64,000 bases of DNA from a virus. The DNA lies in the IMG/VR virus record IMGVR_UViG_3300037454_000906, positions 1 to 64,000 of that record. One strand, written 5' to 3'. This document shows positions 1,594 to 47,905 of this stretch, in pieces; position 1 is the stretch's first letter, and the number at the start of each line of letters is the position of its first letter. Made by a program: the position numbers and the translations under genes. Under the pieces are notes generated by a model. The model was not told the DNA's origin, made no database searches, and saw only the letters and a list, made by a program, of their open reading frames with translations.

Positions 1594-2007
1594 TCACATT
1601 GCCTCGAATACAAGAGTCTTGAAGATATCCCAGTTGGCGTCAATCTGCTGGTAGATGTCTATTTTCCGTTCGGTTTTGGTGTCGGGCCATCCAGTGACGA
1701 TGACCTCGTACTCGCATTTAGCCCAGAAGAAGTACATGCACTTGCGGCGAAGCTCTATTTCAAGAAGATCGTCGGGCGTATATTTTTTCTTGCGCTTCTT
1801 GTCGTCCCATATCATCTGGTCGATGAGTTTCTGGTACTTTTCATCGTCCTTTCCATAAGCGGCATTCAGTTTCTTTTTGAGCTTTTTGAGGGCGTCAATA
1901 AGTGAGCTGAGTTGTCCGAATTCAAATATGTTCTTGAACTGGATACCATCCCCATATTCATTGTAGATTACGAGAAATGACGGTTTCTTTGCATGGTTCT
2001 TTTTCAT
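1594..2007 (-). CDS. Phage-type hypothetical protein (137 aa)
   Basis: GGAGG RBS; aromatic motif YFFWAKCEYE...WP...KIDIYQQI resembles hypothetical proteins I recall from gut phages (not searched). Confidence 0.7.
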   Translation of the reverse strand: MKKNHAKKPSFLVIYNEYGDGIQFKNIFEFGQLSSLIDALKKLKKKLNAAYGKDDEKYQKLIDQMIWDDKKRKKKYTPDDLLEIELRRKCMYFFWAKCEYEVIVTGWPDTKTERKIDIYQQIDANWDIFKTLVFEAM

Positions 2008-27843: not shown

Positions 27844-28404
27844 GTTAGTCACCATGCGACCCAGTGGGGATGCTATCGAACGCGGCGGGGCATAGAAGTT
27901 TCGCGGAGTTGTAGTCACCATGCGACCCAGTGGGGATGCTATCCTGGGACACCAATGAAATACTCCGTTCAGTGTTGTAGTCACCATGCGACCCAGTGGG
28001 GATGCTATCTTATATGGGCGAAGGCCGCAGATTGTGCCCGTTGTAGTCACCATGCGACCCAGTGGGGATGCTATCGATTCCCGGCACCCTTCGTGTGTAG
28101 GTAGGTTGTAGTCACCATGCGACCCAGTGGGGATGCTATCTGTCATAGTCTCCTGTTGCGGTTTCGCCATGTTGTAGTCACCATGCGACCCAGTGGGGAT
28201 GCTATCAAAAAGAAATTTAATATCTCGGCTCGAACCGTTGTAGTCACCATGCGACCCAGTGGGGATGCTATCACCGAGGGGGCACTGCTCATAGAGAGTA
28301 GAGTTGTAGTCACCATGCGACCCAGTGGGGATGCTATCGCGTCTCGGGAACGACTCATCAACGCGACTGTTGTAGTCACCATGCGACCCAGTGGGGATGC
28401 TATC
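27842..28404 (-). CRISPR. CRISPR array: 9 repeats (36 nt) and 8 spacers (seven 30 nt, one 29 nt)
   Basis: GTTGTAGTCACCATGCGACCCAGTGGGGATGCTATC at 27908, 27974, 28040, 28105, 28171, 28237, 28303 and 28369; degenerate copy at 27842. Minus orientation is inferred from the degenerate end and the gene direction. Confidence 0.97.
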
Positions 28405-28587: not shown

Positions 28588-29868
28588 TTAGCAATTTGCA
28601 GCCAATTTGGCAAGTCCCGCTTGTTTAATATTCATGGCGGCATTTACATCGCGGTCATGATGTGCACCACACTTGGCACAGGTCCATTCGCGGATACTGG
28701 TCACCAACTTTTCAGTCAGTTTGTTTCCACAACAATGGCATGTGCGGGATGTATATGCAGGGTCCACTTCGACCACGGTTTTACCATAGGTGGAAGCCAT
28801 AGATTTAATCTTGGTGGCAATCCTGCCCATGGATGCTTCTGCGATGTTCCGGTGAGTAGTCCCGTTTTGACGGTTACTCTTATCGGCAACGTCTTTCAGC
28901 AAACCGCCTTTGATGGCCAAGTCTTCCATGCAGATGACATCAGCATTATCGACCACGAATCTTGCGGTTTCATTGATGTAATTGTTCCTCATGTTATAAA
29001 GTTGTTCGGTTAGTGCCGCAACCTTCTTCTTATAGCGCTTGTAGTTACCCGATTCTGCAACCAGTTTACGCTTTTGGTGTTCCTTCCCATCTTTCCCGGT
29101 AAAAGTGACTACGGTCCATGTACCAGCCCTCATCTTCTTCGCCTGGTAAAATTCAATTTTATTACGAACTTCCTTTACACGCGGATCATCACCGTTACGA
29201 TTGCCCCTAAAATATTTCTTTTTTGTTACAATGGACCTACGGTCAATTTTTCTTCCATCATCAAAGGTAACCGCTGTCGATACCCCGAGGTCGATCCCAA
29301 CCGTATTGCCCGTTTTCGGTAACGGTTCAGCATCCGGCACCTCACAAAGGATGGAAGCAAAATATTTCCCTGTGCTGCTCCTGGAAATTGTGATGGTCCT
29401 TGTTTTCAGTTCAGCGAAGTTGATGTCCTCATAATTCCTAAACTGTATCATCCCTGGGCATTTGGGAACTTTCAACTTATGGCCGTTAACTTTAATCTTG
29501 TCACTCTGGAAACTTCCAGCAATAGATTTTTTATGGTATTCCGGGTGCTTGGCACGGCCCTTGAAGAAGTTGTCAAATGCGGTTTCCAGGTTTCTCTGTA
29601 CACAGTTCAAAGCCCTGGCCTCAATCTCCTTCAAAAAACTGGTAGTTTCCTGCTTCGGGTATATGCTGTAATTGATCTTATGCTTAAACTTGTGGGCTTT
29701 TTTCTCATCGGCGCTCATTCCTTCGATGGATTTCTTGTATTCCTCATAGGCTTCGTTTGCATCATGGAGCATCATGTTGAATATGGCCCTTGCACATACG
29801 ATGGCCTTGGCGAAATAGTTGGCCTGTATTTTGTTGGGGTAGAGCCTTACTTTAAATGCTTTCAACAT
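28588..29868 (-). CDS. CRISPR-adjacent TnpB-like RuvC nuclease (candidate compact Cas12/type V-U effector, 426 aa)
   Basis: N-terminal LKAFKVRLYPN (IS605 OrfB-type); RuvC-I VGIDLGV, RuvC-II CMEDLA, zinc finger CHCCG/CAKCG, RuvC-III DRDVNAAMNI; no IS end hairpins in the flanks. Confidence 0.85.
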   Translation of the reverse strand: MLKAFKVRLYPNKIQANYFAKAIVCARAIFNMMLHDANEAYEEYKKSIEGMSADEKKAHKFKHKINYSIYPKQETTSFLKEIEARALNCVQRNLETAFDNFFKGRAKHPEYHKKSIAGSFQSDKIKVNGHKLKVPKCPGMIQFRNYEDINFAELKTRTITISRSSTGKYFASILCEVPDAEPLPKTGNTVGIDLGVSTAVTFDDGRKIDRRSIVTKKKYFRGNRNGDDPRVKEVRNKIEFYQAKKMRAGTWTVVTFTGKDGKEHQKRKLVAESGNYKRYKKKVAALTEQLYNMRNNYINETARFVVDNADVICMEDLAIKGGLLKDVADKSNRQNGTTHRNIAEASMGRIATKIKSMASTYGKTVVEVDPAYTSRTCHCCGNKLTEKLVTSIREWTCAKCGAHHDRDVNAAMNIKQAGLAKLAANC

Positions 29869-46134: not shown

Positions 46135-46599
46135 GGTACCTCCTGTGGTCATTGGTGCACACGCGGGCACCCCGTGTCCAACGATGGGGTCGTGGACATG
46201 GGTGCCCGTGTGTGCAGTGGTGGACCCCCGTGGTTCGCGGTGGCAACACGGGGGAAACGCTTGGTCGGCGGGGGGCGCGGGTACGGGGTAGCCGCCACGG
46301 TCATTCGGGGACCTGGGGGCCACCCCCTGTGAACGCAGGCCGTGCCCTGTCCGGCGACCTGTGCCTACGCTGTACCCCCGTGTCCCCCTCGATCTGGGAC
46401 ACTGGGTACACGGTGGGCATGGGGTCGCCGGGGGTCACTGGTCGCGGGAGGGGTGGTACACGGTGGGGATGGGCGGGCAGGGCGCGGCGGTGGAGCCTGG
46501 ACGGAGGTGGCGCCTGGGTTGTTAGCTGTTAATGAAAATGTTAATAAAATTTAACTAAACATACTTAAATATGCTAATGGAAATAATGTATATTTAGTT

Positions 46600-46805
46600 A
46601 TGCCTAGTTTGATATGCCGACCGTGTTAAGGCTCTTCAGTAATGAAGTAGGACTAGGCAAGTCAGCCGTGTTGCTTGATGCATATTAGGTATATCGCGTA
46701 GATACGGTTGATTAAGTGCCGTTACGGCCTACCCAGTGATGGGCAAGGTAGGAAATCACATAAGTCTATCTCTTGGTAGATTTAGGTAGGTTTCAGCTAA
46801 CGGTG
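46600..46805 (+). ncRNA. Candidate structured non-coding RNA
   Basis: No ORF; TATATT at 46589; three closing stems TGCCTAGT/ACTAGGCA, AGTCAGCCGT/ACGGTTGATT and CCGTTA/TAACGG, with internal GNRA-capped hairpins. Confidence 0.6.
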
Positions 46806-46830
46806 GAAAAATGAAAAATTAAAAAACGGA

Positions 46831-46859
46831 AAGGCCCCCGGTTGTTCACCGGGGGCCTT
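46831..46859. terminator. Strong intrinsic terminator hairpin
   Basis: AAGGCCCCCGG-ttgttca-CCGGGGGCCTT with an A-tract on the left (U-tract on the minus strand). Confidence 0.75.
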
Positions 46860-46898
46860 GGATGTTTGGAGTATTATATGGATTTGATTGAGATTGTA

Positions 46899-47905
46899 CT
46901 AGGGGACCATCTTGGATCCGAATATTTTCCTGGACCACTTCCTGAACGTTTCGGGGGTGCAGGGGTTGAGCCAGTTGCCGCATTGTGCGTCGGAGATCTG
47001 TCCGTCCCTGTGGAGGGAGTCCTTGAACGCCGCCCAGGAGAGCTGCATTTCCCAGTAGTCGCCCCAGGGGGTGTCCTTGGACTCGACGAACATCTGGATG
47101 GCCTGTCGTTTGGTGAGGTACTTGCGCATGGTGTTCTCCTTACTGCGGCATGACGTGTACGCGGGTGTTGAACCCGAGGGCGGACTCCCCGAGCATCTTT
47201 GCGATGGATTTTCCCTTTTCGGTGAGGGAGAGGGCGAAGATTTCGCCTTGTTCCTCGGTGTCGATAGTCCACACGGGTTCGAGGGTGTCCTTGGTGTCCA
47301 TGTAGCCGATGCTGAGGAACACTCCGCGTTCCTGGGCGGCGTTCTTCACGTCCTCGATTGCGCCGTAGAACTTCTGGACAGCGGGGAGTTCGGCGGTCGG
47401 TATTCCCTTGGCCGGGGCCGCGCCGTCGAGGATGTCCTTGAGGTCGGCGCCGTCTTCGTAGAGGTGCCTGATGGCCTGGTGTGCGTCCTGGTAAGCCTTG
47501 TAGATTTCCGGGGTGACGAGTTTTCTCATGCCTTCGTGTCCGATTTCGGCGTGTCCGAAGTAGGAACCGTTGACTCTCGTGGCGTTTCTCATGATTGGAT
47601 CTCCTTTTGATGCCTGTACGGCGTGTCCCCGGGGTCCACGGGGTACGGGGACCTCGGGACACGGCGGGGATGGCTAGAAGCCGACGGGGATTCCGATGGC
47701 TAGTTTTGCAAAAATGAAAAATTTAAGAATCAAATTCCCGGCCCAGGCCACGGAAGTCCTTGTCCATGATATACGCGATTTCGTCGGTGTTGTGCCCGTC
47801 GCGGTAAAGTTCCTGCACCTTGCGGCGGTCCGCCTCGTCGAGGTAGAACCAACCGCGGGCGCGGCACTTCGCCGATACGGCTTCCCATACCTGCTCGAAG
47901 TCCAT
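46899..47905 (-). CDS. Hypothetical ORFs: 46899..47129, 47140..47592, 47723..~47905
   Basis: AGGAG RBS-supported. Confidence 0.6.

What the first reader, a model, noticed from the sequence alone, without database searches (positions are those of the whole stretch)
46589..46859. Highly structured ~200-nt ncRNA candidate running against the gene block
Seen: an ORF-free, AT-richer stretch after a TATATT hexamer with three domains. (i) TGCCTAGT 46601-08 / ACTAGGCA 46652-59 encloses CTTCA-GTAA-TGAAG. (ii) AGTCAGCCGT 46660-69 / ACGGTTGATT 46704-13. (iii) CCGTTA 46719-24 / TAACGG 46798-803 encloses CCTACC/GGTAGG with CCCA-GTGA-TGGG and AAGTCTATC-TCTT-GGTAGATTT. GNRA loops and many G-U pairs favour the plus strand, and a strong hairpin follows at 46831. 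I do not recognise it as tRNA, tmRNA, RNase P, SRP or 6S. Inference: a new phage ncRNA.
Basis: partly seen in the sequence, partly recalled or inferred. Interest (0 to 1): 0.72.

Follow-up and report, generated by a model that had tools for sequence, protein, structure and literature searches.

The report
Gene-less TnpB guide-RNA mini-transposon in phage
The flagged structured RNA is real, but it is the guide-RNA scaffold (omega RNA) of a 285-base protein-less jumping element that occurs three times in this 253-kb cattle-gut phage and probably borrows the phage's own TnpB nuclease, which is a kind of selfish element already described.

Summary
Every helix is at the stated coordinates. The + strand folds far better than shuffles (z -6.4), and ten diverged copies keep 99% of the base pairs, with compensatory and G-U changes.

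It is not an orphan new RNA. The ~205-nt scaffold is homologous to the 3' end of a 578-aa TnpB gene in the same phage. Both RNAs stop at ...TTTCAGNNAACGGT, after which the flanks differ, as in an omega RNA (reRNA).

The scaffold and an AT-rich ~80-bp left end form a 285-bp ORF-free element (46520-46804). It sits next to a GGGT motif and is present three times in the genome. Related phages lack it at two of these sites: a contig joint skips 46517-46815, and a 97%-identical Cas12-like locus has an uninterrupted CRISPR leader.

The tracrRNA/leader reading is rejected. The hairpin at 46831 is the terminator of the neighbouring minus-strand gene, not part of the RNA.

Stand-alone omega RNAs and PATE-like elements are already published (Meers 2023; Altae-Tran 2023). 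This scan has also met the same family in a related 260-kb phage. The RNA family is absent from Rfam.

Verdict: new member of a known kind, of moderate interest. Action in trans with TnpB and transcription are inferred, not shown.

The parts
46516..46519 (+). GGGT, the target-adjacent motif (TAM-like) directly 5' of the element
   Evidence: GGGT precedes the left end in all 11 mini and full-length copies that keep a left end, while the flanks before it differ. It is present in the uninterrupted site of the copy-B relative.
46520..46804 (+). 285-bp protein-less mini-transposon (left end plus omega-RNA right end), copy A
   Evidence: There are three copies in the genome at 93-98% identity with sharp common borders. 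Contigs of a related phage skip 46517-46815. No ORF is present.
46520..46599 (+). AT-rich left end, the likely promoter and transposase-binding part; includes the TG+TATATT box at 46587-46594
   Evidence: It is conserved in 8 of 10 mini copies. It aligns without gaps at about 60% to the left end of full-length TnpB elements (read by eye). The sigma-70 scan finds no canonical promoter, so the promoter is inferred.
46600..46804 (+). omega RNA (reRNA) scaffold with three domains: 46601-46659, 46660-46713, 46719-46804
   Evidence: It is homologous to the last ~190 nt of the 578-aa tnpB locus. The fold has z -6.44 and shows covariation.
46805..46824 (+). flank-derived guide segment of the omega RNA (inferred; length of 16-20 nt assumed)
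   Evidence: Sequence conservation among copies ends exactly at 46804, and every insertion has a different 3' flank.
46831..46859 (-). intrinsic terminator of the neighbouring minus-strand operon (not part of the element); it may also stop the omega RNA transcript
   Evidence: The terminator scan calls it on the minus strand only, with a 12-bp stem and a T-run. It is not shared by other copies.
46899..47129 (-). 76-aa ORF with an AAGGAG ribosome-binding site, convergent with the element

Best explanation
The region is copy A of a 285-bp non-autonomous mini-transposon (46520-46804) derived from a TnpB-encoding IS element of the IS200/IS605-IS607 superfamily. The left ~80 bp is the transposon left end and probably carries the promoter. 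The right ~205 bp encodes an omega RNA scaffold that ends exactly at the transposon right end. Transcription therefore runs into the flank and adds a site-specific guide of about 16-20 nt (46805 onward). Inferred mechanism: the RNA is loaded in trans onto the phage's 578-aa TnpB (genome 82792-84528, with intact RuvC D/E/D motifs and a zinc ribbon). The complex then cuts DNA that carries GGGT followed by the guide match, which is the same site without the element, either after excision or in a co-infecting sibling phage. Recombinational repair would then copy the element back in (homing/retention). Shown here: repetition, borders, homology to the tnpB 3' end, conserved structure, and presence/absence polymorphism at two sites. 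Inferred: transcription start, loading on TnpB, cleavage, and which transposase moves the element.
For: - **Copies:** there are three at 46516-46804 (+), 88027-88315 (-) and 71105-71395 (-), 93-98% identical, and conservation stops at ...AACGGT.
- **Homology to tnpB:** nhmmer finds a fourth match over the stop codon of a 578-aa ORF (E 9e-6), and the alignment extends this over ~190 nt. That ORF has the Cas12f1-like TNB domain (1.2e-11) and its best solved relatives are Cas12f/TnpB.
- **Other phages:** 15 further loci in viral contigs split into 8 gene-less and 7 tnpB-3'-end versions, each with a different 3' flank.
- **Structure:** 18 of 46 consensus pairs covary between the two versions, and 99.1% of pairs are kept among the mini copies.
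- **Empty site, copy B:** a 97%-identical Cas12-like locus reads ...TGTGGGT|TAACTATTTGG... without the element. Copy B's flank matches that site at 19 of 20 positions after GGGT.
- **Empty site, copy A:** contigs in three runs of one study join 46517 to 46815.
- **Co-occurrence:** a full-length TnpB gene of the same type is present in 5 of 7 records that carry mini copies.
- **Literature:** PATE elements often encode omega RNAs that need TnpB in trans (10.1101/2023.03.14.532601). Stand-alone omega RNAs work in trans with compatible effectors (PMC10691335).
Against: - **Divergence from the full-length RNA:** the mini scaffold is only ~65% identical to this phage's full-length omega RNA, and domain ii aligns poorly, so compatibility with this TnpB is unproven. 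No full-length element with a closer scaffold was found.
- **Left end:** the homology is weak. A profile of full-length left ends hits a mini copy only at E 2.4.
- **Promoter:** no canonical sigma-70 promoter is found.
- **Expression:** the data are contigs from metatranscriptome libraries, which may contain DNA.
- **Empty allele at site A:** the known empty allele reads GGAT rather than GGGT and differs inside the guide match, so it would probably not be cut.
- **Transposase:** it is not identified.
Confidence: 0.82

Rival explanations
1. It is a tracrRNA-like or leader component of the phage's type V CRISPR system, because copy B lies between the 894-aa Cas12-like gene and its 8-repeat array.
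For: Copy B is co-oriented with the cas gene and the array and ends 35 nt before repeat 1.
Against: The two known orthologous loci (97% and 89% identical effectors) go from cas gene to a ~90-nt leader to the array without the element. There is no anti-repeat: the element-repeat duplex is -20.7 kcal/mol against a mean of -26.3 for shuffled repeats. Copies A and C lie far from any array.
Confidence: 0.02
2. It is a decaying relic: dead fragments of TnpB elements with no activity, whose structure persists only because the copies are young.
For: Copies within this genome are 93-98% identical. One copy elsewhere lacks the left end and sits behind a tRNA, and another has a different left end. The only known empty allele at site A lacks the GGGT motif.
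Against: Copies from other phages are down to 85% identical yet keep 99.1% of pairs, with 9 double-change cells and mostly G-U-compatible single changes. The motifs CGACCGTGTTAAG, TAGGAAATCAC and TTTCAG..AACGGT are invariant even against the 65%-identical full-length version.
Confidence: 0.1
3. It is a domesticated guide gene: the phage keeps these cassettes as portable guides so that its TnpB attacks rival phages, or a rival's CRISPR leader, rather than to spread the element.
For: Copy B's guide matches the intact CRISPR leader of a sibling phage at 19 of 20 positions next to GGGT. The genome carries 8 TnpB-type genes plus a Cas12-like system. Stand-alone omega RNAs 'provide for targeting additional sites' (PMC10691335).
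Against: Every guide is simply the local flank, as expected of any insertion. Nothing shows selection on the guides. The same data fit plain selfish homing.
Confidence: 0.06

Closest known systems
Stand-alone omega RNAs and PATE-like protein-less IS200/IS605 elements (Geobacillus stearothermophilus ISGst relatives, Meers et al. 2023; stand-alone omega RNAs of OMEGA systems, Altae-Tran et al. 2021/2023)
   Same: It has no ORF. It has a left end plus a right end that encodes a full guide-RNA scaffold. It is multicopy, mobile, and shares a genome with an effector-encoding relative, so it needs the nuclease in trans.
   Different: It is carried by a 253-kb phage rather than a bacterial chromosome. 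The partner is an unusually long (578-aa) TnpB. The ends carry 10-bp-spaced subterminal repeats and GGT at both junctions. One copy sits in a CRISPR leader.
TnpB omega RNA / reRNA of ISDra2 and other IS200/IS605-IS607 elements
   Same: The scaffold overlaps the 3' end of tnpB in the full-length version, ends at the transposon right end, and is followed by a flank-derived guide. It is a multi-helix structured RNA of ~150-200 nt.
   Different: There is no detectable sequence similarity to catalogued families, since Rfam 15 gives no hit. Here the scaffold is uncoupled from the gene and preceded by its own AT-rich upstream region.
tracrRNA of type V CRISPR-Cas systems
   Same: It is a structured RNA gene between a Cas12-like gene and the array (copy B only), and tracrRNAs are thought to descend from omega RNAs.
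   Different: It has no anti-repeat, is absent from orthologous loci, and is present elsewhere without arrays.

Membership tests
TnpB omega RNA (reRNA) | Scaffold homologous to the 3' end / right end of a tnpB element | tested here: met
   The nhmmer match spans the stop codon of the 578-aa TnpB gene. Alignments A2 and A3 extend it over ~190 nt with invariant blocks.
TnpB omega RNA (reRNA) | Scaffold ends at the transposon boundary and is followed by a variable, flank-derived guide | tested here: met
   All 25 copies examined end in TTTCAGNNAACGGT (one has AATGGT), and each distinct insertion has a different flank.
TnpB omega RNA (reRNA) | Conserved secondary structure supported by covariation | tested here: met
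TnpB omega RNA (reRNA) | Transcribed, bound by TnpB, and guides TAM-dependent DNA cleavage | not testable with these tools
   The only hint is that short contigs from cattle-gut metatranscriptome libraries cover 46646-46804 at higher contig depth than the flanks. DNA carry-over and multicopy effects are not excluded.
PATE-like / stand-alone omega RNA mini-element | No protein-coding gene between the ends | tested here: met
   No ORF of 30 aa or more lies within 46533-46841. The frame equivalent to the TnpB C-terminus is broken by stop codons (read).
PATE-like / stand-alone omega RNA mini-element | Both ends related to those of a full-length element | tested here: inconclusive
   The right end is clearly related. 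The left end shares the same GGGT junction and about 60% ungapped identity by eye, but the profile search gives only E 2.4.
PATE-like / stand-alone omega RNA mini-element | Mobile: several sites, and unoccupied sites in relatives | tested here: met
   There are three sites here and other sites in 6 further records. Empty sites exist for copy B and copy A.
PATE-like / stand-alone omega RNA mini-element | Effector-encoding relative in the same genome | tested here: met
   The 578-aa TnpB is at 82792-84528. The same type of gene is present in 5 of 7 records that hold mini copies.
IS200/IS605 (Y1 TnpA) versus IS607 (serine TnpA) ends | Subterminal ssDNA hairpins with distinct left and right cleavage motifs (IS605), or a shared GG core with repeated TnpA-binding motifs (IS607) | tested here: inconclusive
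   GGT occurs at both junctions, and 10-bp-spaced AAATCTACC-like repeats lie in inverted orientation at both ends, which leans towards IS607. The genome encodes one IS607-type TnpA (MerR HTH + resolvase) and one Y1 TnpA. The region upstream of the IS607 tnpA resembles the left ends only about 2 sd above shuffles.
tracrRNA | Anti-repeat complementary to the CRISPR repeat, and conserved presence in orthologous loci | tested here: not met
Any Rfam 15 family (tRNA, tmRNA, RNase P, SRP, 6S, HEARO, RAGATH etc.) | Covariance-model score at or above the gathering threshold | tested here: not met
   Nothing reaches gathering score in the region. At E up to 10 there are only sub-threshold chance hits.

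The most novel reading that the evidence does not exclude
The mini-elements may be more than passengers. They could be portable guide genes that let this huge phage's TnpB cut sibling phages lacking the insert, an RNA-guided 'marker exclusion'. Copy B's guide is aimed at the intact CRISPR leader of a rival's Cas12-like system. Copy B may also supply a promoter that reads into this phage's own array, placing an omega RNA gene, a Cas12-like gene and a CRISPR array in one transcription unit.
Probability: 0.12. Interest if true: 0.7.

Novelty: new member of a known kind. Interest (0 to 1): 0.38.

Why it matters
This removes a false 'new ncRNA class' and supplies a well-documented example of a guide-only selfish element in a huge phage. 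The example has borders, a GGGT adjacent motif, a covariation-supported three-domain structure and two unoccupied sites. The RNA family and its 578-aa TnpB partner are abundant in cattle-gut phage contigs but are not catalogued in Rfam, so a covariance model would improve annotation. The natural scaffold variants (mini versus full-length, ~65% identical with fixed motifs) show which parts of the RNA are constrained. The insertion into a CRISPR leader is a natural case of a transposon guide RNA sitting beside a Cas12-like array.

Tried and rejected
- **tracrRNA/leader idea (my first reading, 60%):** rejected by the orthologous loci without the element and by the missing anti-repeat.
- **Phage-collection BLAST:** searches of the region and of 14 kb around it found no match.
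- **Relatives of the 894-aa effector in viral contigs:** none found. Only two protein clusters exist in the large protein database, and there are no Pfam, NCBIfam or PDB sequence hits.
- **Copy-A flanks in five related phage records:** only the element itself matched, so these gave no empty site.
- **Linking the ends to the genome's IS607-type TnpA element:** local alignment scores are about 2 sd above shuffles for the left end and at chance for the right end. The other seven TnpB genes have unrelated right ends.
- **Sigma-70 promoter scan:** none found.
- **Metatranscriptome contigs:** the 5' part 46543-46596 has cover in one run only. This says nothing firm about the transcription start, because the data are contigs and the libraries may hold DNA.
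- **'Solitary degenerate CRISPR repeat' after copy C:** on inspection it is the phage's common intergenic hairpin plus ribosome-binding-site motif.

Full report
**Observation.** It lies in an AT-rich island (30-50% GC) within flanks of 60-75% GC. It has no ORF of 30 aa or more.

The + strand folds at -99.8 kcal/mol with z = -6.44, and none of 200 dinucleotide shuffles folds as well. The minus strand gives z = -4.4. ARAGORN and Rfam 15 find nothing here at gathering score, and only sub-threshold noise at E up to 10.

One detail needs correcting. The hairpin at 46831-46859 is scored as an intrinsic terminator on the minus strand only. Its T-run is the A-rich 46805-46830, and it follows the convergent 76-aa gene at 46899-47129. 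It is not shared by the other copies.

**The element is repeated.** The window is the first 64 kb of a 253,117-bp virus record that is 99% complete. The element occurs three times in this record: 46516-46804 (+), 88027-88315 (-, 98% identical) and 71105-71395 (-, 93%). The alignment shows sharp common borders. Conservation starts at GGGTTGTTAGC and ends at TTTCAG(C/T)TAACGGT, and the flanks are unrelated.

**It is an omega RNA scaffold.**
- A profile of the three copies finds a fourth, partial match at 84454-84543 (+), E 9e-6. This match spans the stop codon of a 578-aa ORF at 82792-84528.
- That protein has RuvC-type motifs (GIDVN, AMENL, NADIHSAKN) and a CxxC...CxxC zinc ribbon. It matches the Pfam Cas12f1-like TNB domain at 1.2e-11, and its nearest solved relatives are Cas12f/TnpB.
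- The alignment extends the homology over ~190 nt, from CGACCGTGTTAAG to AACGGT, which lies 15 nt past the stop codon. The flanks diverge after that point.
- A scaffold that overlaps the 3' end of tnpB, ends at the transposon right end and is followed by flank-derived guide is the defining layout of TnpB omega RNA/reRNA (established knowledge; for a published description).

**Related sequences and covariation.** A motif scan of viral contigs gave 15 loci. Eight are gene-less copies and seven are 3' ends of 578-aa-type tnpB genes. Each distinct insertion has its own 3' flank.

Between the two versions, 18 of 46 consensus pairs show double compensatory changes. Among ten gene-less copies (85-99% identical):
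- 75 predicted pairs are standard in 99.1% of cells;
- 6 pairs have double changes, and most single changes are G-U/A-U or G-U/G-C exchanges;
- no shuffle out of 500 reaches the observed values;
- slid controls pair at only 28-41%.

The tetraloops stay GNRA (GUAA/GCAA, GUGA/GCAA/GCGA). The structure and the + strand assignment are therefore well supported.

**It is a protein-less mini-transposon.** The full-length elements begin at GGGTTATCAACAGC..., about 250 bp upstream of tnpB, and unrelated flanks precede that point. The gene-less copies begin at GGGTTGTTAGCTG.... The first ~50 nt of the two left ends align without gaps at about 60% identity by eye. A profile search, however, is not significant (E 2.4). 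GGGT precedes every copy that keeps a left end.

Two unoccupied sites show mobility.
1. **Copy B.** The 894-aa Cas12-like protein next to copy B has a 97%-identical homologue on another contig. There the sequence runs from the cas stop to ...TTATTTTATGTGGGT|TAACTATTTGGTCAACGGGG... to repeat 1. My genome has 285 bp inserted at the bar. An 89% homologue also lacks the element.
2. **Copy A.** Contigs of 5.7, 0.8 and 8.8 kb in three cattle-gut runs of one study align to 46300-46517 and then to 46815-47100. Only 11 nt lie between the two parts. This is a related phage without the element at this site. That allele reads GGAT rather than GGGT.

I therefore place the element at 46520-46804, with GGGT (46516-46519) as the adjacent motif.

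**Which transposase?** This is unresolved.
- GGT is present at both junctions.
- The ends carry 10-bp-spaced AAATCTACC-like repeats in inverted orientation: three in the full-length left end, and two in each right end.
- These features lean towards an IS607-type (serine recombinase) element rather than hairpin-ended IS200/IS605.
- The genome encodes one IS607-type TnpA with a MerR-like HTH plus a resolvase domain, and one Y1 TnpA.
- The ends next to the IS607 tnpA are not convincingly similar to these ends. The other seven TnpB genes have unrelated right ends.

**Rejected reading: tracrRNA or CRISPR leader.** Copy B lies between the 894-aa RuvC-bearing ORF (88346-91030, -) and an array of eight 36-nt repeats (87515-87991). 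Three results count against this reading. The orthologous loci lack the element. The element-repeat duplex (-20.7 kcal/mol) is weaker than the mean for shuffled repeats (-26.3). Copies A and C are not near arrays. Copy B is an insertion into a CRISPR leader.

**Mechanism (inferred).** The left end probably supplies the promoter, through a TG+TATATT box at 46587-46594. No canonical sigma-70 pair is present, and the host's promoter type is unknown. The RNA would start near 46600 and run through the scaffold into the flank.

Loaded on the 578-aa TnpB in trans, it would direct cleavage of GGGT + guide-matching DNA. That target is the unoccupied allele, and cutting it would favour retention or homing of the element. 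Copy B's flank matches the sibling phage's intact leader at 19 of 20 positions after GGGT, as this logic predicts.

A full-length 578-aa-type gene is present in 5 of 7 records that hold mini copies. The two exceptions are a 36%-complete fragment and a 32-kb record. The 578-aa family is abundant, with 796 hits and many above 80% identity on contigs of 200-450 kb.

Expression evidence is weak. Short contigs from metatranscriptome libraries cover 46646-46804 at higher contig depth than the flanks. These are contigs, the element is multicopy, and DNA may be present in such libraries.

**Comparison with what is known.** Meers et al. describe minimal protein-less IS elements resembling PATEs. [quoted passage not shown] The present element is a new member of that kind. 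It differs in four ways: it is carried by a phage, its partner TnpB is long, its end architecture is as described above, and one copy lies in a CRISPR leader. Earlier notes of this scan describe the same family in a related 260-kb phage, and the same kind in many other phages. I tested the central claims independently here.

**Verdict.** This is a new member of a known kind, with interest 0.38. I put the identity at about 0.9. Function in trans with this phage's TnpB is plausible but untested.

Noticed in passing
genome 87515-91030 (beyond the window; L004 7516-11031): An 894-aa protein with RuvC-like GIDLN / MENDL / ADENS motifs has no Pfam, NCBIfam or PDB sequence match and only two homologous clusters in 5.8 billion proteins. 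It is followed by a CRISPR array of 36-nt repeats and appears to be a very rare phage type V-like effector.
   Followed up: partly
L029 4985-5870 versus genome 87515-87991: The 97%-identical sibling locus has about 14 repeats. My genome's spacers 1 and 2 are its spacers 4 and 5. The sibling therefore carries three extra leader-proximal spacers (or mine lost them), although no cas1/cas2 was seen nearby.
   Followed up: no
window 27846-28404 and 28588-29868 (-): A second array (36-nt repeat GTTGTAGTCACCATGCGACCCAGTGGGGATGCTATC, period 66) lies 183 bp from a 426-aa TnpB-type protein (HTH_OrfB_IS605, OrfB_IS605, TNB domains).
   Followed up: partly
genome-wide (18.4, 28.6, 84, 109, 128.5, 145.5, 182.5, 185 kb): There are eight TnpB-type (TNB-domain) genes in one phage genome, plus one Y1 TnpA (186545-186922) and one IS607-type serine TnpA (148773-149507).
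   Followed up: partly
genome 146708-148780 (-; L040 1709-3781): A 690-aa GIY-YIG / NUMOD homing-endonuclease-like ORF sits between the IS607-type tnpA and its 463-aa tnpB, as if one mobile element had inserted within another.
   Followed up: no
genome 71395-71420 (L003 about 1790-1840, minus strand): At copy C the upstream same-strand reading frame appears to run into the element and stop at the TAG in its first bases (GGGT TGT TAG). If so, the insertion has replaced the end of a gene.
   Followed up: no
window 46250-46510: A very GC-rich (70-75%) non-coding stretch with repeated GGTACACGGTGGG(C/G)ATGGG motifs lies directly upstream of the element. It is probably part of the phage's recurring intergenic hairpin/promoter motif.
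   Followed up: no
L015 5780-5870 (minus strand) and L007: In one related contig the omega RNA scaffold lacks the usual left end and lies directly behind the 3' end of a tRNA gene. In another, a 32-kb virus record without the 578-aa TnpB, the left end is replaced by different sequence.
   Followed up: no
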